DNA of 64,000 bases from Eledone cirrhosa. Lineage: Eukaryota. Below the pieces are notes generated by a model that saw nothing but the letters and a program-made list of their open reading frames with translations, was not told the origin of the DNA and searched no databases. The translations under genes and the position numbers were made by a program. The stretch's first letter is position 1. Every line of letters begins with the position of its first letter. The stretch lies in the NCBI GenBank assembly GCA_964016885.1, contig OZ024743.1, positions 235,042,001-235,106,000 on the forward strand, given 5' to 3'. Shown here piece after piece: positions 157-27,546 of this stretch.

Positions 157-3100
157 ATGGATGGACTACGGAATTCTGGAGAGTGGAAGAGAGAAAAATC
201 TGGACGCTCAGCGACAATGCCAAAGATAAAGACAAATTCACCTCGTGGACGAGAATGTGAGCACTCCTCTTTGTTTCGGCCGCGGATGGCTAACATAACC
301 CCATCTCCCCCCGCTCCCCACCGCTCCCACCCTCCAAACGCAATCCAAAACTTCAGAGTTGGTACCATGAATGTAGGCACCTTAAAGGGTCGCTCTCACG
401 AGGTTGTAGAAATGCTCGAACGTAAGGAGGTCGATGTTTGTTGTATTCAAGAGACCAGGTGGAGGGGTGGGTCTGCTAGATTCATTGAGGGTAAAAAAAG
501 GTTGCTATAAGCTTTACTGGGTCGGAAATGACAATGGGCTGGGTGGAGTAGGTATCATGGTAGCAGAAAAGTGGGCAGATAAGATAATAGACGTAAATAG
601 AGTGAACGACAGAATAATTAAAATAAGACTTGTCCTCAATAGAACTACGGTGACAGTAATATCTGCGTACGCACCCCAATCCGGACTGCCCGGCACTATA
701 AAAGACAGATTCTATGAGACACTGATGCTCACTACCTCCCAAATAACCGACAGTGACTATATAATTATTGCAGGCGACCTAAATGGTCACGTTGGACAAC
801 ATTGTGACGGCTACAACGAAATCCATGGAGGCTATGGGTTTGGTACTAGAAATGAGGAAGGCTCCAGAATCCTGGAATTCTGTGACGCAAATAACCTAAC
901 TATCTGTAACACTAACTTCAAAAAACGTGACAATCACCTGATCACCTATAGATCGGGGGAACACACAAGCCAGGTAGATTATATCCTTACCAGAAGATGT
1001 GACAGAGTGTCTGTTGTAAACACTAAATCCCTCCCCCATGAAGAATGCACCTCCCAACATAGACTGATAATTAGCGACCTAATAGTCAGGACAAGACGTA
1101 CTAGACAACAGAAGAGGACTATCCTCAGGAGAAAAATATGGAAGCTAAAGGACCCCACAGCCAGAAATAAATTTAAAAGCATACTACTTGATGCTTTCGA
1201 CAGTAAGGAAGAGCAATTAGAGTCGTACAATATAGAGGGAGAGTGGGAATTCCTGAAAGCAAACCTGCTGATGGCGGCAGACAAAGTCTGTGGCTGGAGC
1301 AGGCCTGTAGGCAGGAGGAGAGTAACATGGTGGTAGAACAGTAAGGTGGAGGGGTCAATTAAGGCCAAAAAGCAGGCTTGGAAATTATGGCGGGATGGGG
1401 GAAGTAGAGAAGATTATCAAGTGGCTAGGAGGGAAGCTAGGAGACAAGTGTACTTCGCAAGAAGGGAAGCAGAGGAAAGAAAGTTCAAGCATGTTCTACA
1501 ATGCGAGGACCAAAAACGTGAGGTGTTCAGGATTGCTAGGCAATGTGTCAAGGAAAACCGTGATATTGTCGGGGAGAAGTGTGTACTTAATGATGACGGC
1601 GTACTTGCCATCACCGACGCTGATAAGAAGGTAGCTTGGAAGTGTCACTATGAAAGGCTACTAAATGAGGAGAATAAATGGGAGAAAGACAGTCTCCCCC
1701 ACATCGACCCAATAGAGGGACCAGCAGTGTTAGTCGAGGGTAGTATAATAAGTAAGGCAATCAAGGATATGAAGACGGGTAAGGCGGCTGGGCCTTCGGA
1801 AATAGTTGCTGAGATGCTGAAGGCATCTGGTACGGTGGGACACACCATGGTCACCCGGATAGTTAACCAAGTCGTACAGAATGGGGTTGTTCCGAAGGAC
1901 TGGCGTAGCAGCATCATCGTTAACTGTTATAAGGGTAAAGGAGATGCCCTAGATAGGAGTAACTATAGAGGCATTAAATTAATCGACCAGGTCATGAAGG
2001 TCACGGAAAAAGTAATAGCGCAACTAATCAGAGAGAGAATTGATCTAGATGAAATGCAGTTCGGTTTTGTGTCAGGCAAAAGTACCACAGACGCTCTTTT
2101 CATTGTACGACAACTACAGGAGAAGTACCTAGCTAAAAGTAAACCCCTATACTTAGCTTTTGTTGACTTGGAGAAAGCCTTCGACAGAGTCCCTCGTTCC
2201 ATTATCTGGTGGGCTCTTAGAAAATTAGGTGTTGACGAATGGCTTGTGAGAGCTATACAAGCCATGTATAAAGAAACAGTCAGCAAGGTTAGAATTAACA
2301 ACGAATATAGTGAAGAGTTTAGCGTAAAAGTTGGTGTCCATGAGGGCTCTGTTCTCAGCCCCCTACTATTTATTATTGCCCTTCAGGCTATAACAGAGGA
2401 GTTCAAGACCGGCTGCCCATGGGAACTCCTATACGCAGATGACCTAACACTCATAGCTGAATCAATGGCCGAGCTAGAGAAGAAATTCCAAACATGGAAG
2501 CACGGCCTAGAATCAAAAGGCCTTAAAATTAACCTGGCTAAGACCAAAGTTCTAGTTTGTAGGAAAGAAAATAAGGCGGCGGTCCCTTCCGGGAAGTGGC
2601 CATGCTCAGTGTGTAGGAAAGGCGTAGGTAGAAACTCCATTTTGTGTCCCAAATGCAAAGTATGGGTGCATAAAAGATGTAGTGGGATCACAGGTAAGCT
2701 AACTAAGAACATAGATTTTAGAGGGTTCTATAGAAATAGTGGACAGCTTCCGTTACCTGGGTGACAAAATCAGCAGTGGGGGAGGGTGCTCTGAAAGTAC
2801 AGTAGCTAGAGTCAGAACTGGATGGAAAAAGTTCAGAGAGCTTATACCACTATTAGCCGCTAAAGGGTTCTCCCTAAAAATGAAAGGCAGGTTGTATGAT
2901 GCCTGCATACGAACAGCAATGTTGCATGGCAGTGAGACCTGGGCATTGTGTGCAGAGGATATACACAGACTAGAGAGGAACGAAGCTTGCATGCTCCGCT
3001 GGATGTGTAATAGTAATATACGTGAACGGCAAAGCATAAACGAACTAAGGAAAAAATTAGAAATAAGAGGGATCAGATGTTGTTTACTCGAGAGAAGGCT

Positions 3101-3815
3101 ACGTTGGTATGGTCACGTGATGCGCATGAAAGACGATAGCTGTATAACAAAGTGCAGGGCAATAAAGATAGATGGTAGCCACGGAATAGGCAGACCCAGA
3201 AAAACCTGGGACGAGCTGATAAATTCCGACCTCACACACTTACACCTCTCCAACACAATGTCACTGGACCGAGACCTTTGGCGGTACTCAGTAATAGAGA
3301 AGACCCGCCTTACCTAAATACAAAGTAAAACCTACTACAGTCAGTAGGCATCTCTAACAAAATACACCCCGACCCACCACCCCCACCCCATCCACACCGC
3401 CCCTTTCAATGTAAAGTTATGTTGGTGCCACAACATCCAGGCCGAAACAAATGAGATCGTGTAGGTGTCACGACAAAAAAACACACAGTCCACGCTGTAA
3501 TGTGGCCGTGTAGGCAACACGGTAAAAACCTCCCAGTCCCACACTGTAAATGTGGTCGGTGTTAGGAAGGGCATCCAGCTGTAGAAAACCCGCCAGACAG
3601 TCCACGCTGTAATGTGGCCGTGTAGGCAACACGGTAAAAATCTCCCAGACCCACACTGTAAATGTGGTTGGTGTTAGGAAGGGCATCCAACTGTAGAAAA
3701 CCTGCCAGACAGTCCTATGCGAGCAAGACAATCACTCTTGCCTCAAGTGGGAAAACCCCCGTCCAAACCCATGCAAGCGTGGAACACGGACGTTAAACGA
3801 TGATGATGATGATGA
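157..3815 (+). mobile_element. RTE-clade non-LTR retrotransposon, near full length, disabled (APE endonuclease - RT - PHD-like finger - 3' UTR - (GAT)n tail)
   Basis: ORF pieces 157-510, 434-1336, 1346-2764 and 2739-3317 carry APE motifs (GTMNVGTL, CIQETRW, AGDLNGHVG, SQVDYIL, SQHRLI), RT motifs (NYRGIKL, QFGF, AFVDLEKAFDRV, LLYADD), a CSVC..CPKC..HKRC finger and an RTE C-terminus ([18 protein letters not shown]). Lesions: frameshift in the A-run near 493, TAG at 1334-1336, deletion/frameshift near 2720. The 3' UTR ends in GATGATGAT. Confidence 0.95.
3487..3713 (+). repeat. Two direct copies of a 111-bp unit in the RTE 3' UTR
   Basis: cagtccacgctgtaatgtggccgtgtaggcaacacgg...aggaagggcatcca.ctgtagaaaacc.gccagacag starts at 3487 and again at 3598. 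Confidence 0.9.
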
Positions 3816-3829
3816 TATATAATATATAT

Positions 3830-3882
<53 letters not shown>

Positions 3883-4064
3883 ATTTATATATATAATATA
3901 TATATATAATATATATTATATATATATATAATATATATTATATATATATATAATATATATTATATATATATATATATAATATATATATATAATATATATA
4001 TATATATAATATATATATATATATAATATATATATATATATAATATATATATATATATAATATA
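3816..4064. repeat. (TA)n / TATAA microsatellite
   Basis: Read directly; a second tract lies at about 4289-4479. Confidence 0.98.
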
Positions 4065-4288
4065 TCATCATCATTCATCATTTCATTTTACGTCCGCTTT
4101 TCCCTGCTTGCAAGGGTGGGACGGGAACTGATTTTGGCTTGATTTCTACAGCTGGATGCCCTTCCTAACACCAACCTCATTTACAGTGAGTGCTGGGTGC
4201 TTTTTTGCCGTGGCACCTCCACGACCACTTTGCAGTGGAATGATAGGGACCCCAGTCCCTATCATCTCATTTCTACAGCTGAGTAAAC
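4065..4288 (-). mobile_element. 5'-truncated copy of the RTE-tailed SINE (full copy at 17095-17441)
   Basis: The reverse complement closely matches about 17215-17440 (tttactcagctgtagaaatgagatgata...aggaagggcatccagctgtagaaatcaagcc...gcggacgtaaaatgaaatgatg). Confidence 0.9.
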
Positions 4289-4302
4289 TATATATATAAT
4301 AT

Positions 4303-4334
<32 letters not shown>

Positions 4335-4446
4335 ATATATATATATAATATATATTATATATATATATATAATATATATTATATATAATATATATATATA
4401 TATATAATATATATATATATATAATATATATATATATAATATATAT

Positions 4447-4479
<33 letters not shown>

Positions 4480-4649
4480 CTCATCATTACCTGCATTTAA
4501 CATCTTTTTTCCATTCTTTCATGGATTGATGATGGATTGTCATGTTCTGATGCTAGATCAGTCAGGTGAATATGTTTAGCTCATGTGTTCCATTTTTGAT
4601 ATGGTTTCTACAGCGAGATGCTCTTCCTAATGCTAACCACTTTACAGTG

Positions 4650-7600
4650 TATACTTGGACCATTTTATCATGGCACCAGCACTACCTTCTTACTGGCTGA
4701 ACTGGGAGCATCTTATCGTGGCAGCAGTACTACCACCTTACTGGCTGAACTGGGAGCATCTTATCGTGGCAGCAGTACTACCACCTTACTGGCTGAACTG
4801 GGAGCATCTTATCGTGGCACCAGTACTACCACCTTACTGGCTGAACTGGGACCATTTTATCATGGCACCAGCACTACCTTCTTACTGGCTGAACTGGGAG
4901 CATCTTATCGTGGCACCAGTACTACCACCTTACTGGCTGAACTGGGAGCATCTTATCGTGGCACCAGTACTACCACCTTACTGGCTGAACTGGGAGCATC
5001 TTATCGTGGCACCAGTACTACCACCTTACTGGCTGAACTGGGAGCATCTTATCGTGGCACCAGTACTACCACCTTACTGGCTGAACTGGGAGCATCTTAT
5101 CGTGGCACCAGTACTACCACCTTACTGGCTGAACTGGGAGCATCTTATCGTGGCACCAGTACTACCACCTTACTGGCTGAACTGGGAGCATCTTATCGTG
5201 GCACCAGTACTACCACCTTACTGGCTGAACTGGGAGCATCTTATCGTGGCACCAGTACTACCTTCTTACTGGCTGAACTGGGAGCATCTTATCGTGGCAC
5301 CAGTACTACCACCTTACTGGCTGAACTGGGAGCATCTTATCGTGGCACCAGTACTACCACCTTACTGGCTGAACTGGGAGCATCTTATCGTGGCACCAGT
5401 ACTACCACCTTACTGGCTGAACTGGGAGCATCTTATCGTGGCACCAGTACTACCACCTTACTGGCTGAACTGGGAGCATCTTATCGTGGCACCAGTACTA
5501 CCACCTTACTGGCTGAACTGGGAGCATCTTATCGTGGCACCAGTACTACCACCTTACTGGCTGAACTGGGAGCATCTTATCATGGCAGCAGTACTACCAC
5601 CTTACTGGCTGAACTGGGAGCATCTTATCGTGGCACCAGTACTACCACCTTACTGGCTGAACTGGGAGCATCTTATCGTGGCACCAGTACTACCTTCTTA
5701 CTGGCTGAACTGGGAGCATCTTATCGTGGCAGCAGTACTACCACCTTACTGGCTGAACTGGGAGCATCTTATCGTGGCACCAGTACTACCACGTTACTGG
5801 CTGAACTGGGAGCATCTTATCGTGGCACCAGTACTACCACCTTACTGGCTGAACTGGGAGCATCTTATCGTGGAACCAGTACTACCACGTTACTGGCTGA
5901 ACTGGGAGCATCTTATCGTGGCACCAGTACTACCACCTTACTGGCTGAACTGGGAGCATCTTATCGTGGCACCAGTACTACCACCTTACTGGCTGAACTG
6001 GGAGCATCTTATCGTGGCAGCAGTACTACCACCTTACTGGCTGAACTGGGAGCATCTTATCGTGGCAGCAGTACTACCACCTTACTGGCTGAACTGGGAG
6101 CATCTTATCATGGCACCAGTACTACCTTCTTACTGGCTGAACTGGGAGCATCTTATCGTGGCACCAGTACTACCACCTTACTGGCTGAACTGGGAGCATC
6201 TTATCGTGGCAGCAGTACTACCACCTTACTGGCTGAACTGGGAGCATCTTATCGTGGCACCAGTACTACCTTCTTACTGGCTGAACTGGGAGCATCTTAT
6301 CGTGGCACCAGTACTACCACCTTACTGGCTGAACTGGGAGCATCTTATCGTGGCACCACTACTACCACCTTACTGGCTGAACTGGGAGCATCTTATCGTG
6401 GCACCAGTACTACCTTCTTACTGGCTGAACTGGGAGCATCTTATCGTGGCACCAGTACTACCACCTTACTGGCTGAACTGGGAGCATCTTATCGTGGCAC
6501 CAGTACTACCTTCTTACTGGCTGAACTGGGAGCATCTTATCGTGGCAGCAGTACTACCACCTTACTGGCTGAACTGGGAGCATCTTATCGTGGCACCAGT
6601 ACTACCACCTTACTGGCTGAACTGGGAGCATCTTATCGTGGCACCAGCACTACCTTCTTACTGGCTGAACTGGGAGCATCTTATCGTGGCACCAGTACTA
6701 CCTTCTTACTGGCTGAACTGGGAGCATCTTATCGTGGCACCAGTACTACCACGTTACTGGCTGAACTGGGAGCATCTTATCGTGGCACCAGTACTACCAC
6801 CTTACTGGCTGAACTGGGAGCATCTTATCGTGGGACCAGTACTACCACGTTACTGGCTGAACTGGGAGCATCTTATCGTGGCACCAGTACTACCACCTTA
6901 CTGGCTGAACTGGGAGCATCTTATCGTGGCAGCAGTACTACCACCTTACTGGCTGAACTGGGAGCATCTTATCGTGGCACCAGTACTACCACCTTACTGG
7001 CTGAACTGGGAGCATCTTATCGTGGCAGCAGTACTACCACCTTACTGGCTGAACTGGGAGCATCTTATCATGGCACCAGTACTACCTTCTTACTGGCTGA
7101 ACTGGGAGCATCTTATCGTGGCACCAGTACTACCACCTTACTGGCTGAACTGGGAGCATCTTATCATGGCACCAGTACTACCTTCTTACTGGCTGAACTG
7201 GGAGCATCTTATCGTGGCACCAGTACTACCACCTTACTGGCTGAACTGGGAGCATCTTATCGTGGCACCAGTACTACCACCTTACTGGCTGAACTGGGAG
7301 CATCTTATCGTGGCAGCAGTACTACCTTCTTACTGGCTGAACTGGGAGCATCTTATCGTGGCACCAGTACTACCACCTTACTGGCTGAACTGGGAGCATC
7401 TTATCGTGGCAGCAGTACTACCACCTTACTGGCTGAACTGGGAGCATCTTATCGTGGCAGCAGTACTACCTTCTTACTGGCTGAACTGGGAGCATCTTAT
7501 CGTGGCACCAGTACTACCACCTTACTGGCTGAACTGGGAGCATCTTATCGTGGCAGCAGTACTACCTTCTTACTGGCTGAACTGGGAGCATCTTATCGTG

Positions 7601-10354
7601 GCACCAGTACTACCACCTTACTGGCTGAACTGGGAGCATCTTATCGTGGCAGCAGTACTACCTTCTTACTGGCTGAACTGGGAGCATCTTATCGTGGCAC
7701 CAGTACTACCTTCTTACTGGCTGAACTGGGAGCATCTTATCGTGGCACCAGTACTACCTTCTTACTGGCTGAACTGGGAGCATCTTATCATGGCACCAGT
7801 ACTACCACCTTACTGGCTGAACTGGGAGCATCTTATCGTGGCACCAGTACTACCTTCTTACTGGCTGAACTGGGAGCATCTTATCGTGGCACCAGTACTA
7901 CCACCTTACTGGCTGAACTGGGAGCATCTTATCATGGCACCAGTACTACCACCTTACTGGCTGAACTGGGAGCATCTTATCGTGGCACCAGTACTACCAC
8001 GTTACTGGCTGAACTGGGAGCATCTTATCGTGGCACCAGTACTACCACCTTACTGGCTGAACTGGGAGCATCTTATCGTGGCAGCAGTACTACCACCTTA
8101 CTGGCTGAACTGGGAGCATCTTATCGTGGCACCAGTACTACCTTCTTACTGGCTGAACTGGGAGCATCTTATCGTGGCACCAGCACTACCTTCTTACTGG
8201 CTGAACTGGGAGCATCTTATCGTGGCACCAGTACTACCACCTTACTGGCTGAACTGGGAGCATCTTATCGTGGCAGCAGTACTACCTTCTTACTGGCTGA
8301 ACTGGGAGCATCTTATCGTGGCACCAGTACTACCACCTTACTGGCTGAACTGGGAGCATCTTATCGTGGCACCAGTACTACCACCTTACTGGCTGAACTG
8401 GGAGCATCTTATCGTGGCACCAGTACTACCTTCTTACTGGCTGAACTGGGAGCATCTTATCGTGGCAGCAGTACTACCACCTTACTGGCTGAACTGGGAG
8501 CATCTTATCGTGGCAGCAGTACTACCACCTTACTGGCTGAACTGGGAGCATCTTATCGTGGCACCAGTACTACCACCTTACTGGCTGAACTGGGAGCATC
8601 TTATCGTGGCAGCAGTACTACCACGTTACTGGCTGAACTGGGAGCATCTTATCGTGGCACCAGTACTACCACCTTACTGGCTGAACTGGGAGCATCTTAT
8701 CGTGGCACCAGTACTACCACCTTACTGGCTGAACTGGGAGCATCTTATCGTGGCACCAGTACTACCTTCTTACTGGCTGAACTGGGAGCATCTTATCGTG
8801 GCAGCAGTACTACCACCTTACTGGCTGAACTGGGAGCATCTTATCGTGGCAGCAGTACTACCACCTTACTGGCTGAACTGGGAGCATCTTATCGTGGCAC
8901 CAGTACTACCACCTTACTGGCTGAACTGGGAGCATCTTATCGTGGCAGCAGTACTACCACGTTACTGGCTGAACTGGGAGCATCTTATCGTGGCACCAGT
9001 ACTACCACCTTACTGGCTGAACTGGGAGCATCTTATCGTGGCACCAGTACTACCACCTTACTGGCTGAACTGGGAGCATCTTATCGTGGCAGCAGTACTA
9101 CCACCTTACTGGCTGAACTGGGAGCATCTTATCGTGGCAGCAGTACTACCACCTTACTGGCTGAACTGGGAGCATCTTATCGTGGCACCAGTACTACCAC
9201 CTTACTGGCTGAACTGGGAGCATCTTATCGTGGCACCAGTACTACCTTCTTACTGGCTGAACTGGGAGCATCTTATCGTGGCACCAGTACTACCACCTTA
9301 CTGGCTGAACTGGGAGCATCTTATCGTGGCACCAGTACTACCACCTTACTGGCTGAACTGGGAGCATCTTATCGTGGCACCAGTACTACCACCTTACTGG
9401 CTGAACTGGGAGCATCTTATCGTGGCACCAGTACTACCACCTTACTGGCTGAACTGGGAGCATCTTATCGTGGCAGCAGTACTACCACCTTACTGGCTGA
9501 ACTGGGAGCATCTTATCGTGGCACCAGTACTACCACCTTACTGGCTGAACTGGGAGCATCTTATCGTGGCACCAGTACTACCACCTTACTGGCTGAACTG
9601 GGAGCATCTTATCGTGGCACCAGTACTACCTTCTTACTGGCTGAACTGGGAGCATCTTATCGTGGCACCAGTACTACCACCTTACTGGCTGAACTGGGAG
9701 CATCTTATCGTGGCACCAGTACTACCACCTTACTGGCTGAACTGGGAGCATCTTATCGTGGCACCAGTACTACCACCTTACTGGCTGAACTGGGAGCATC
9801 TTATCGTGGCACCAGTACTACCACCTTACTGGCTGAACTGGGAGCATCTTATCGTGGCAGCAGTACTACCACCTTACTGGCTGAACTGGGAGCATCTTAT
9901 CGTGGCACCAGTACTACCACCTTACTGGCTGAACTGGGAGCATCTTATCGTGGCACCAGTACTACCACCTTACTGGCTGAACTGGGAGCATCTTATCGTG
10001 GCACCAGTACTACCTTCTTACTGGCTGAACTGGGAGCATCTTATCGTGGCACCAGTACTACCACCTTACTGGCTGAACTGGGAGCATCTTATCGTGGCAC
10101 CAGTACTACCACCTTACTGGCTGAACTGGGAGCATCTTATCGTGGCACCAGTACTACCACCTTACTGGCTGAACTGGGAGCATCTTATCGTGGCACCAGT
10201 ACTACCACCTTACTGGCTGAACTGGGAGCATCTTATCGTGGCAGCAGTACTACCACCTTACTGGCTGAACTGGGAGCATCTTATCGTGGCACCAGTACTA
10301 CCACCTTACTGGCTGAACTGGGAGCATCTTATCGTGGCAGCAGTACTACCACCA
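4650..10354. repeat. 48-bp tandem minisatellite/satellite, about 119 copies
   Basis: Unit ctggctgaactgggagcatcttatcgtggcaccagtactaccacctta with a few recurrent variants (agc/acc, ttc/acc, cat/cgt). It has no stops in two + frames, which produces the 1913-aa and 1904-aa ORFs. Confidence 0.98.
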
Positions 10355-15289: not shown

Positions 15290-17050
<1,761 letters not shown>

Positions 17051-22427: not shown

Positions 22428-23019
22428 CATATACATATATATACATATATATATATATATATATGAGAGTATTGAAGTTTGCTTGAAGCATTGTGGAACA
22501 ATAAGTAAATATTTATAAGTCGTTTGGAAGCCTCGACAATGCAAATGGGTAAATCTCCGGGTAACAAGGTCCGGTGGTGGAGAGAGAGAGATATGTAAGT
22601 GGGTGTACGTTGAGATGCGTGGTGTGTATAAGATGTGTGAGATGTGTAGAATGAAGGGAAGAGTGAAAGGGTAAAAATAATAACAACACAAGAGAGAGAG
22701 AGTAACCTTGGGAGAGATTTAATAGTCCCTATATATTTCGGATTCACATCCATCAACTGGGGGTTTTTTTCCGGGGTGGGGAAAAGGTTGTCTGTCGGAC
22801 AATTCGGAACGCGTCTTTCGCTAAGAACAAAAGATGGTTAAAGGAGTTCCATGTATTTTATTATGCGCATTTCATATACATATATATATATATGTAGGAG
22901 GTGAGTTTTATTGTAGTACAATAAAGCAATGCAGATATTGGATAAGAAGCACTCTACAGTTTGTAGGACTGGAGTATACATAATATATAAGATCAAATGA
23001 TGGTTAAAGGAGTTCCATG

Positions 23020-23090
23020 TATTTTATTATGCGCATTTCAAAAACAAACATCATCATGCAATAATATTTGTGTTTTCATCAGATAAAACA
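23020..23090 (-). ncRNA. Type I hammerhead ribozyme motif (family A, inverted copy)
   Basis: Reverse complement of the 16841-16911 motif. Confidence 0.85.
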
Positions 23091-24252
23091 GGAGGACATG
23101 ATATGAAGGCTAAAAAACACTTGTGGATAGTGCAGTTTTGAATCAACATATGGGAAGTAATTTTAGATTGATGTGTGATATTGGGAAAAATATTTTATTT
23201 AGAGAGGGGGGGTGGAAAGGATGAAAAAAGGGGAGGAGATGAGAGTGAAGGTGGAGAGGGAGAGATGGGTGATAGAGAGAAAGAGATAGTTTTTATAACT
23301 GAGAAAAGATATATTGTTTTACATAGAGAGGTTGAAAACCGTTGGAAGATAATGTATAAATTAAAAGAATTTGAAAATTAACGAAGGGAAAAATATGTAC
23401 GAAGAAGGAGAGGAAGTTAATATGTATTGAGATTAAAAAGTTTGATGATAGAGAGAATAGAATAATGGATATACATATACATACACCTCTTTTAAAATAT
23501 ACCCATCTTCCTACCTTACTTCAAAGGGTATTATACACTCTATAATACTTGTTTACTCATTACCCTCACTCTATCTTCACCTTGTAAAATCCTTCGTAAC
23601 ATATACATTTGTTTTGACGCCAGATTATTCATCCTTAATTTATTATTTTTTTCTCCCCATCATCTAACTCATTTTTAATACATATTAACTCTTTCTTCGC
23701 ACATATTATCAATTCCTTCAATATACAAACCTTAACTTCACATTATTTTTCTCAAATCCTTCAATACACAAACCTTAATAATTTTTTCTTAATAATTCTC
23801 TTCGTTAATTTTCAAATCTCCATAATACTTGTAAACATACACACATTTTTTTGACGTTAGAATATTCATCCGCAATCCATTATTCTATTCTCTCTATCAT
23901 CAAACTTTTTAATCTCAATACATATTAACTCCCTCTCCTTCTTCGTACATATTTTTCCCTTCGTTAATTTTCAAATTCTTTTAATTTATACATTATCTTC
24001 CAACGGTTTTCAACCTCTCTATGTAAAACAATATATCTTTTCTCAGTTATAAAAACTATCTCTTTCTCTCTATCACCCATCTCTCCCTCTCCACCTTCAC
24101 TCTCATCTCCTCCCCTTTTTTCATCCTTTCCACCCCCTCTCTAAATAAAATATTTTTCCCAATATCACACATCAATCTAAAATTACTTCCCATATGTTGA
24201 TTCAAAACTGCACTATCCACAAGTGTTTTTTAGCCTTCATATCATGTCCTCC

Positions 24253-24323
24253 TGTTTTATCTGATGAAAACACAAATATTATTGCATGATGATGTTTGTT
24301 TTTGAAATGCGCATAATAAAATA
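24253..24323 (+). ncRNA. Type I hammerhead ribozyme motif (family A)
   Basis: Same sequence as 16841-16911; CTGATGA at 24261-24267 and GAAA at 24304-24307. Confidence 0.85.
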
Positions 24324-24823
24324 CATGGAACTCCTTTAACCATCTTTTGATCTTATATATTATATACATATATATATATATATACATATATATACATATA
24401 TATATACATATATATATACATATATATACATATATACATATATATATACATATATATATATACATATATATATATACATATATATATACATATATATATA
24501 TACATATATATATACATATATATATATACATATACAGATATATATACATATATACATATACAGATATATATACATATATATATACAGATATATATACATA
24601 TATATATACATATATATACATATATATATATACATATATATATACATATATATATACATATATATATATACATATATATATACATATATATATATACATA
24701 TATATATATACATATATATATACATATATATATACATATATATATACATATATATATATACATATATATATACATATATATATACATATATATATATACA
24801 TATATATATATACATATATATAC

Positions 24824-24872
<49 letters not shown>

Positions 24873-24879
24873 CATATAC

Positions 24880-25280
<401 letters not shown>

Positions 25281-25281
25281 C

Positions 25282-25352
<71 letters not shown>

Positions 25353-25444
25353 CATATCTATATATATATATACATATCTATATATATATATACATATATA
25401 TATAGCGTGGAAGAACGGGCGTAAAACGGTGATGATGATGATGG

Positions 25445-26045: not shown

Positions 26046-26060
26046 TATATATATATATAT

Positions 26061-27546
26061 ATTGACGAATATAGGGTACAAGAGGCAATTAAGGAAATGA
26101 AAAATGGTAAGGCTGCTGGACCATCGGGGATAGTTGCTGAGATGCTGAAGGCATCAGGAGAAGTAGGCACTAAACTAGTTGCACGCATCATTAATCAAGC
26201 TAAATATGGTGGTGTCATACCCAAAGACTGGTGCAGCAGTATTCTCATAAATTGCTACAAAGATAAAGGGGATGCTCTAGAGAGGAGCAATTATAGGGGC
26301 ATAAAGCTGATGGATCAGGTTATGAAAGTGGCAGAGAGAATATTAGCGCAACTGATTAGAGAAAGGGTCAAATCAGATGAGATGCAGTTTGGTTTTGTTC
26401 TTTGTGAGGCAACTACAAGAGAGGTTCTTAGAGAATAAGCCACTATACTTAGCTTTTGTTGACCTAGAGAAGCCCTTTGATAGTTTCCTTAGGGACCACC
26501 AGAGTGTACCCTAAGTGTAGAGGAATGGCTTATGAGGACAGTGCAAGCTATGTACAGGGGTGCTGTCAGTAAAGTGAGAATACAAATGGAGTTTAGTGAG
26601 GAATTTCAGATACAAGTAAGTGTACATCAGGGTTCGGACCTCAGCCTGCTCTTGTTCATTATAGTCCTCCAAGCCACAACAGAGGAGTTTAAGACTGGAT
26701 GCCCATGGGAACTTCTCTATGCTGATGATCTGGTTCTTATAGCAGAATCAGTAGAGGAGCTAGAGAATAAATTCTGGCTATGGAAACATCAGTTGGAATC
26801 AAGAGGCCTGAGAGTGAACATAGCTAAAACAAAACTATGTATGCAGTAGATGTACAGGGAAAGTTGGCAGTAGTAATCACAGTGATAGACACATTTTACC
26901 AATGCAGGTAGGTTCTATAGAAGTGGTTGATAGCTTCTGGTACCTAGGTGATCAGATTAGCATGGGAGGCGGGTGTTCTGAGGCCATAGTATCTAGAATA
27001 AGGATGGGTTGGAAGAAGTTTAGGGAGCTGCTTCCTCTGTTGACAAAGAAGGGTTTCTCCCTGCGTACAAAAGGCCGGTTATATGATGCCTGTGTGAGAT
27101 GCGCGATGCTGCATGGTAGTGAGACATGGGCAGCAACTGCAGAGGATATGCGACGGCTGGAGAGAAATGAAGCAAGTATGCTCAGTTGGATGTGCAATAT
27201 CAATGTGCGTGAATGACCAAGCATGAACGAGTTGAGAAAGAAACTGGGTATAAGAGGGATAAGTTGTGGTGTGCAGGAGAGAAGGCTGAGATGGTATGGA
27301 CATGTGATGCGCATGGAGGATGACCGCTGGGTAAAGAAGTGCCAAGAAATCCCAGTAGAAGAAAAACGCAGTAGAGGTAGACCACGAAAAAAATGGGTGG
27401 AGGTGGTGAGAGCAGACCTCAGATTGCTGAAACTCACCAAGGAGATGACGAAGGACCGTGACAAGTGAAGAGATGTTGCGCTGAATAGGACCCGTCCAAC
27501 TCTTGCAAGCAGGGAAAAGCGGACGTAAAATGATGATGATGATGAT
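26061..27546 (+). mobile_element. Decayed RTE copy (RT to tail)
   Basis: [44 protein letters not shown] and a (GAT)n tail, with internal deletions. Confidence 0.92.

What the first reader, a model, noticed from the sequence alone, without database searches (positions are those of the whole stretch)
22894..24362. Family A: two hammerheads on opposite strands in a ~485-bp inverted repeat
Seen: arms at about 22985-23468 and 23876-24362 are near-perfect reverse complements around a ~400-bp spacer, and each has the same hammerhead with an unusually long AU-rich stem II and an AUGCGCAU stem III. On the minus strand the left arm continues to an AATAAA shortly before the (TA)n junction, which suggests the natural 3' end. 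A further truncated piece lies at 22830-22875. Established: inverted terminal copies are characteristic of Penelope-like insertions. Inference: hairpin-primed or template-switch integration; a read-through transcript would form long dsRNA.
Basis: partly seen in the sequence, partly recalled or inferred. Interest (0 to 1): 0.75.

Follow-up and report, generated by a model that had tools for sequence, protein, structure and literature searches.

The report
Penelope element copied from both ends
This is one of thousands of back-to-back insertions of a young jumping gene of a known type (a Hydra-clade Penelope-like retrotransposon that carries a hammerhead-ribozyme motif), and its two arms, which end at two fixed points, were likely copied from one RNA starting at both cut strands of a TA repeat, not by a hairpin folding back.

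Summary
The inverted repeat is real (494 bp, 99%), with an intact type I hammerhead motif in each arm. It is a 5'-truncated, head-to-head insertion of a young Hydra-clade Penelope-like element. A 3.5-kb parent with an RT plus GIY-YIG ORF lies elsewhere in the genome, and a 26-mer of the family has 9,976 exact matches. The 'spacer' is the parent's 3' UTR. The AATAAA end is not a poly(A) end: it is one of two fixed insertion ends about 83 nt apart. Inverted arms, a tail, opposite-strand hammerheads and (TA)n targets are all published for this group. The copies bear on the unsettled mechanism. 46 of 60 sampled insertions pair one short end with one tail end. Either arm can be longer, and some pairs do not overlap, which fold-back cannot make. 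Arms share subfamily alleles (269/285) and never mix start-site and long classes (0 versus 14 expected). At least 1,400 mini-copies stop at one base, often with an extra G, likely a capped start. Best reading: two-ended priming on one RNA (inferred). The scan reached similar readings for other families. New member of a known kind.

The parts
22894..23470 (-). Left arm: 5'-truncated copy of the element's 3' UTR and pLTR, ending at the 'tail' end (parent L061 4893-5470)
   Evidence: 99% to parent
22894..22976 (-). Tail of about 83 nt present on one arm only; in the parent it is the leader between hammerhead and ORF; holds the AATAAA
   Evidence: no poly(A) in 56 ends
23020..23090 (-). Type I hammerhead motif, left arm; predicted cut between 23028 and 23027
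23471..23874 (+). 'Spacer': 2-nt AT junction insertion, then the unpaired 5' part of the right arm (parent 3' UTR starting 41 nt after the ORF stop, with the 111-bp repeat unit)
23473..24366 (+). Right arm: 5'-truncated copy ending at the 'short' end inside the element's own TATATTAT, merging with (TA)n (parent 4503-5385)
   Evidence: 98% to parent
24192..24192 (+). Base at which 40% of arms in the family begin (parent 5211); likely capped transcription start. Both arms of this insertion read through it
   Evidence: 37 of 92 arms
24253..24323 (+). Type I hammerhead motif, right arm; predicted cut between 24315 and 24316
   Evidence: covariation
24361..25404 (.). (TA)n-rich microsatellite target on the right
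22822..22880 (-). Fragment of the family (parent 5316-5374; GAAA, stem III and 3' stem I only; TTCT variant, so a separate event) fused to family B
22465..22822 (-). 3' end (pLTR with its own 36-nt tail) of a second, unrelated Penelope-like family with a CCHH-type endonuclease
15864..16956 (+). Second insertion of the same family in the window: 31-nt inverted tail arm (15864-15894) plus long short-end arm (parent 4467-5387) with hammerhead at 16841-16911; the arms do not overlap

Best explanation
This is a head-to-head insertion of two 5'-truncated copies of a young Hydra-clade Penelope-like retrotransposon into a (TA)n repeat, likely made when both nicked target strands primed reverse transcription on one RNA at two fixed internal sites about 83 nt apart. 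Shown: parent element, two fixed 3' ends, one per arm, variable 5' ends, target, shared alleles between arms. Inferred steps: (1) the element's GIY-YIG endonuclease, probably as a dimer, nicks both strands of the symmetric (TA)n target; (2) one 3' end primes at the RNA's UAUAUUAU (short end), the other at CUAC/AU (tail end), each with a few bases of AT homology; (3) the two cDNAs extend independently towards the RNA 5' end over the same template, passing through an uncleaved hammerhead; (4) their 3' ends join by microhomology or small templated insertions and each is filled in. Priming at the 5' copy of the pLTR would run off the capped start at parent 5211 and give the 430-bp mini hairpins; priming at the 3' copy gives long arms such as this one. 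The hammerhead is predicted to need a dimer (palindromic stem III) and does not set the usual template end.
For: Parent L061: pLTR 1554-1990, 808-codon open frame 2036-4462, 3' UTR/pLTR to 5470; 18 homologues at E<=1e-80, RT and EN motifs aligned. 46 of 60 insertions have one short end and one tail end; 2 tail+tail, 1 short+short, 1 unclear, 10 with no inverted partner found. 91 of 100 arm ends have (TA)4 within 20 nt. Tail arm longer in 8, short-end arm longer in 20, equal in 18 of 46; 4 pairs overlap by 15 nt or less, as does the window's copy at 15864. Arms agree at 269 of 285 diagnostic-site comparisons against 158.5 expected, 44 insertions. 0 of 46 pairs mix a start-site arm with a long arm against 14.4 expected; none of 100,000 shuffles reached 0. 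37 of 92 arms begin at 5205-5216; 2,865 junction matches, mostly two per element; depth in short-read contigs steps up about 2.5 to 3-fold there. A G precedes that start 2,340 times against 2,444 for A plus T, where the parent has C; 22 of 48 junction ends not explained by the partner begin with this letter. In vitro, an anole Poseidon protein cuts and extends both strands, starts at two internal sites that define the tail, and uses uncleaved RNA (PMC11167929).
Against: Copying the same RNA stretch twice needs strand displacement, which was not shown; two RNAs from one locus fit equally well. A predicted pile-up of tail arms at the short-end site was not found (286 matches versus 335 in the downstream control window). 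In PMC11167929 the start site did not differ between strands, so the strict one-short, one-tail pairing is unexplained. 7 of 17 long-long pairs end within 45 nt of each other and many mini-copies have a perfect palindromic centre, which fold-back could also give. Arm likeness could come from later conversion between arms. The extra G is ambiguous where the partner arm supplies it (18 of 42 cases). 0 of 11 insertions that span the pLTR-ORF junction begin at the proposed start; 7 reach further upstream, so a second template type is needed. 4 of 30 tail-selected loci have an arm starting within 2 nt of the hammerhead cut. The sample is the first 59 Mb of one contig and needs one exact 26-mer.
Confidence: 0.6

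Rival explanations
1. Two-ended priming, but on two RNA molecules of the same locus and length class, held in one dimeric particle, possibly paired through the palindromic stem III.
For: Avoids copying one template twice; AUGCGCAU self-duplex is -10.5 kcal/mol and forms in the predicted dimer; no collision signal; the anole protein is a predicted dimer (PMC11167929).
Against: No mixed-subfamily pair at the five clean diagnostic sites in 44 insertions with at least five haplotypes, one private haplotype shared by both arms (L118), and 0 of 46 mixed length classes; two RNAs would have to be matched in source and priming end.
Confidence: 0.22
2. Hairpin or self-priming (first reader; self-priming is proposed in PMC3846280): one cDNA folds back at a palindrome and copies itself.
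For: Near-identical arms (median 0 differences in about 153 nt versus 4 between insertions); palindromic junction centres; 18 of 46 pairs with equal 5' ends.
Against: A fold-back copy must lie inside the first arm. Either arm can be the longer by up to about 2.5 kb, the short-end arm cannot template the tail, and 4 of 46 pairs plus the window's 15864 copy barely overlap. In this locus the short-end arm is 390 nt longer at its 5' end, while the tail is on the other arm.
Confidence: 0.12
3. The mini hairpins are a self-propagating non-autonomous subfamily transcribed from an internal promoter, not by-products of full-length RNA.
For: At least about 1,400 copies with a fixed start; Drosophila Penelope likely has an internal promoter (PMC2377424); long junction-spanning copies never stop at that start (0 of 11).
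Against: Four of five haplotypes occur in both mini and long copies. This rival concerns the template source and is compatible with two-ended priming.
Confidence: 0.3
4. Assembly artefact or DNA-level inverted duplication after insertion.
For: 99% arm identity beside long microsatellites.
Against: Asymmetric tail, unique flanks, 5 differing columns between arms, the same layout at 46 of 60 loci, and loose ends at the same three boundaries in short-read contigs of run X1 (X1 may be the source sample).
Confidence: 0.03

Closest known systems
Hydra clade of Penelope-like elements, including Hydra-1_Obim of Octopus bimaculoides (Craig et al. 2021, PMC8557442; passages, supplement tables S1/S2 part 2 and alignment passages seen)
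   Same: C-terminal GIY-YIG, DKT, CxCx5C linker, no CCHH, CxxC/CxH around E and N, canonical hammerhead, (TA)n target, inverted 5' copy with one-sided tail
   Different: A different family from Hydra-1_Obim (other hammerhead and protein, by eye); 3.48-kb unit with 0.9-kb 3' UTR and an Asn-rich insert; 83-nt tail instead of 30-40; long A-U-closed stem II; thousands of copies with clear pLTR
Poseidon of Anolis carolinensis, PAc (Frangieh et al. 2024, PMC11167929; main text parts 1-2 read, supplements not seen)
   Same: Two internal start sites that define the tail, AT-rich target, both strands cut and extended, uncleaved RNA as template
   Different: Other clade; there the sites lie inside the ORF and were not homologous to the target; the main text does not link two-strand extension to inverted repeats
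Adineta vaga Penelope elements with inverted pLTRs (Arkhipova et al. 2013, PMC3846280; passages)
   Same: Head-to-head inverted pLTR, optional tail, palindromic junctions
   Different: Explained there by self-priming, which the arm lengths here contradict as a general route
Minimal hammerheads of PLEs (Cervera and de la Pena 2014, PMC4209133; passages)
   Same: Type I, palindromic helix III, large helix II, predicted dimer; pairs 100-700 bp apart on opposite strands already noted
   Different: A10.1-U11.1 instead of the usual G-C; stem II region of 36 nt
L1 twin priming (bioRxiv 10.1101/2024.08.27.596794, passages; Ostertag and Kazazian 2001 seen only as a reference)
   Same: Both nicks prime on one RNA, cDNA ends join by microcomplementarity, arm lengths correlate
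   Different: L1's second primer lands at chance sites and the arms barely overlap; here both sites are fixed and the arms overlap almost wholly

Membership tests
Penelope-like element (EN+) | Single ORF with RT and GIY-YIG endonuclease | tested here: met
   808-codon frame in L061 with FDI, MGA, YRDD and IY..YFG motifs; no Pfam match at E<=0.1, 7 of 18 homologues carry PF26215. The window's own copy lacks the ORF.
Penelope-like element (EN+) | pLTR from partial tandem, inverted 5' copy, one-sided tail | tested here: met
   L061 and 213 junction matches; 46 of 60 inverted with tail
Hydra clade | DKG changed to DKT | tested here: met
   SDKT
Hydra clade | No CCHH between GIY and YIG | tested here: met
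   One Cys only between the two motifs
Hydra clade | CxCx5C linker; CxxC before E and CxH after N | tested here: met
   CNCPIKNKC in L062-L064 (one Cys changed in L061); CNLC..E and N..CLH
Hydra clade | N-terminal RWK motif | tested here: inconclusive
   RW present, third residue I
Hydra clade | Canonical hammerhead and (TA)n insertion | tested here: met
Hydra clade | Generally shorter than 3 kb (a tendency, not a strict criterion) | tested here: not met
   Unit length 3,480 bp
Hydra clade | Phylogenetic placement with reference Hydra RTs | not tested
   Reference sequences were only viewed in the supplement; motif blocks match by eye
Hydra-1_Obim family | Same hammerhead and protein sequence | tested here: not met
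   Published motif has CTGAAGA, short stem II and ACCA/TGGT stem III
Type I hammerhead ribozyme | Conserved core and stems I-III with covariation | tested here: met
   Core intact in 184 of 194 arms; 8 of 9 stem II pairs change on both sides across 11 chosen variants, 0 of 500 shuffles reach the score (relatedness inflates this control)
Type I hammerhead ribozyme | Self-cleavage | not testable with these tools
   Needs in vitro transcripts
Non-LTR retrozyme | Non-coding tandem monomers, each with a hammerhead | tested here: not met
   Copies are truncations of a coding element, arranged head-to-head
MITE or DNA transposon | Fixed symmetric terminal inverted repeats around a fixed body | tested here: not met
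   Ends are asymmetric and 5' ends vary from 1992 to 5391

The most novel reading that the evidence does not exclude
Penelope-like insertion is double-ended by design: one RNA is reverse-transcribed twice, from both target strands at two fixed sites, and when this happens at the RNA's 5' pLTR both cDNAs run off the cap, so the genome holds over a thousand integrated 'strong-stop' hairpins that record the transcription start, the cap and both priming sites. This would explain inverted pLTRs and the tail in one step and replace the self-priming model.
Probability: 0.5. Interest if true: 0.68.

Novelty: new member of a known kind. Interest (0 to 1): 0.42.

Why it matters
The structure itself is ordinary for Penelope-like elements. 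How their inverted and tandem repeats form is named as open in PMC8557442, and the one in vitro study found does not address it in its main text. A young family with thousands of copies, intact-looking frames (821, 808, 775 and 762 codons among five long copies) and diagnostic alleles turns that question into simple tests, and gives exact predicted start and priming sites. The thousands of near-perfect hairpins would also be a source of double-stranded RNA if transcribed, which was not tested.

Tried and rejected
Rfam: 0 matches in the window. Pfam: 0 families for the ORF. No RNA holder listed among 6 runs, so expression, cleavage, small RNAs and editing are untested; laid runs were contigs of unrecorded kind and showed no strand-change joints. 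Collision of the two cDNAs at the short-end site: rejected, 286 versus 335 in the control window. Hammerhead cut as template 5' end: by eye about 12 of 87 junctions start within a 7-nt window round the cut, about 20 expected if even, while about 44 start at the base of stem II. Hairpins beside the two priming sites (a lead from finding e1-10307541): predicted but no better than shuffles (z -1.04, -0.78, -0.16). Poly(A) end at AATAAA: rejected. Arm differences in this locus show no A-to-G cluster. Target-site duplications cannot be read inside (TA)n. No scan finding near this place or by sequence. Searches for a published two-ended model: 'Penelope, twin priming, head-to-head, pLTR, second-strand', 'Penelope-like, retrotransposition, mechanism, inverted, both strands, cryo-EM' from 2022, 'Penelope, retrotransposon, twin priming' listed none that makes the claim, judged from listings. 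Arkhipova 2006, Evgen'ev and Arkhipova 2005 and the PAc supplement were not seen and may already propose it. An O. vulgaris repeat annotation lists 31 recently active Penelope-like families with no mention of Hydra or hammerheads (PMC13282606, passages). No tree with reference Hydra proteins was built.

Full report
Observation. The arms at 22977-23470 and 23875-24366 are reverse complements at 99.0% over 494 columns, and each holds a type I hammerhead motif with an 8-bp stem I, a 36-nt stem II region and the palindrome AUGCGCAU as stem III. A third copy lies at 15864-16956. Rfam finds nothing at gathering score and the single sequence folds no better than shuffles. The core is intact in 184 of 194 arms. 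Among 11 variants picked from the 93 found, including more distant families of the same genome, 8 of 9 stem II pairs change on both sides. Stem III stays self-complementary or nearly so in most relatives, and the 8-mer forms no hairpin alone but a -10.5 kcal/mol duplex with itself, as described for dimer-acting PLE hammerheads (PMC4209133).

The parent. The genome (3.0 Gb; probably an octopod, inferred from the nearest named homologue, an Argonauta protein at 38%, and from a SINE recalled from memory) has 9,976 exact matches to a 26-mer of the family. Locus L061 holds a partial tandem: pLTR 1554-1990, an open frame of 808 codons (797 from the ATG that aligns with homologues) and a 3' UTR/pLTR to 5470. 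[quoted passage not shown] The paper lists one octopus Hydra family, with a different hammerhead. No tree was built. On the parent, the window's left arm is 4893-5470 inverted and the right arm 4503-5385; the spacer is 3' UTR.

Architecture of the family. The first 100 matches fall in 60 insertions, all fetched. 46 are head-to-head with one arm ending near 5387 (short end, inside TATATTAT) and one near 5470 (tail end); 2 are tail+tail, 1 short+short, 1 unclear and 10 had no inverted partner in the fetched stretch. 91 of 100 arm ends touch (TA)n. None of 56 tail ends has poly(A); 3 run on into the ORF leader, a junction found 213 times in the genome. So the AATAAA end is a fixed insertion end inside a longer RNA. 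This fits the anole PLE, where two internal start sites define the tail and both strands are cut and extended (PMC11167929).

Tests of mechanism. Fold-back needs one arm inside the other. The tail arm is longer in 8 pairs, the short-end arm in 20, and 18 are equal; 4 overlap by 15 nt or less, as does the window's copy at 15864, whose tail arm is 31 nt. Two separately primed cDNAs are therefore needed in many cases. They are not independent draws: arms agree at 269 of 285 diagnostic-site comparisons (158.5 expected; most disagreements lie in four low-complexity columns or at gaps), and no pair mixes a start-site arm with a long arm (0 of 46, 14.4 expected). One RNA, or two matched RNAs, is the simplest reading; later conversion between arms is not excluded. 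Junctions show overlap in 26, blunt joins in 6 and insertions in 18 of 50, many of them copies of nearby sequence, which resembles polymerase-theta joining (recalled, not tested). A predicted collision of the two cDNAs was not seen.

A fixed 5' end. 37 of 92 arms begin at 5205-5216, mostly A5211, in a TCA context in the common subfamily. Junctions with both arms at that point match 2,865 times, mostly twice per element, so at least about 1,400 mini hairpins of some 430 bp. Short-read contigs of one sample step up in depth there and show loose ends at all three boundaries (possibly the source sample). Where the parent has C, a G precedes the start 2,340 times against 2,444 for A plus T. In all G, A and T cases of the first 116 Mb of C1 (92 ends), 22 of the 48 classed as not explained by the partner begin with that letter, or 20 of 44 after dropping by eye four rows with a diverged partner (L163, L181, L210, L212; P about 0.0004 against base composition); 18 of the 42 G cases are ambiguous. 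Untemplated G is taken as a cap mark in L1 and SVA (PMC4859970), and Drosophila Penelope starts inside its pLTR from a likely internal promoter (PMC2377424). A capped start 124 nt upstream of the hammerhead cut is likely (about 0.7). The cut site itself is not enriched as a 5' end (counted by eye), although 4 of 30 tail-selected loci start there. Against a single template type: 0 of 11 insertions that span the pLTR-ORF junction stop at 5211 and 7 go further upstream, so tandem read-through, a circle or a template jump must also occur.

Neighbours. The 22822-22880 piece is parent 5316-5374 of another subfamily variant, fused in the same direction to 22465-22822, the 3' end of a second PLE family with a CCHH endonuclease, a 36-nt tail and the same head-to-head layout.

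Known and new. Inverted 5' copies, tails and (TA)n targets (PMC8557442, PMC3846280) and opposite-strand hammerhead pairs (PMC4209133) are published. The family was not found described in the searches made. The two-ended reading was formed before the scan's notes were opened; those notes reach similar readings for other families here and a cap run-off reading in another genome, which is not independent support. Verdict: real, a new family of a known clade, with copy statistics that argue against self-priming and make two-ended priming testable. Interest 0.42.

Noticed in passing
window 22465-22822; L148-L161: Second young PLE family (C-terminal EN with CCHH and a cysteine-rich linker, Nematis/Neptune-like from recall) with head-to-head arms, 36-nt tail and a 5' cluster at a GATATTCAAATC near-palindrome; my scan found no canonical hammerhead in its pLTR.
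   Followed up: partly
L122 848-1043 (G000:C1:41.39 Mb): A 194-nt piece of the second family, itself with an inverted repeat, is captured between the two arms of a family A insertion: cross-family template switching.
   Followed up: no
L012:1077-1144, L037:2359-2423, L057:2408-2473, L064:3666-3731, L149, L150:580-644, L159: Further hammerhead families with the same stem I and a long, variable, covarying stem II; stem III AUAUGUAU or AUAUAUAU.
   Followed up: partly
L063:3344-3414, L016, L018: A 76-85% diverged sister subfamily with core CUGAUCA (G8 changed), joined tail-to-tail to family A copies inside (TA)n.
   Followed up: no
L134 (G000:C1:54092100-54102000): A 9-kb near-palindrome of two near full-length tandem units.
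   Followed up: no
L061 about 3800-4030: Asn-rich insert of about 75 residues between RT thumb and EN linker, absent from homologues, like the N-rich inserts of Adineta Penelope ORFs (PMC3846280).
   Followed up: no
window 4653-10353: 48-bp tandem array of about 119 copies, 96% matches.
   Followed up: no
window 35043-35132: Old fragment related to the Hydra ORF (70% DNA, 61% protein over 28 residues).
   Followed up: no
window 26060-26500: RTE-like LINE reverse transcriptase fragment (seen in the sequence, identity recalled).
   Followed up: no
runs X5, X6 (organisms B, C): Related copies with the same tail end followed by (AT)n occur in two other coded organisms.
   Followed up: no
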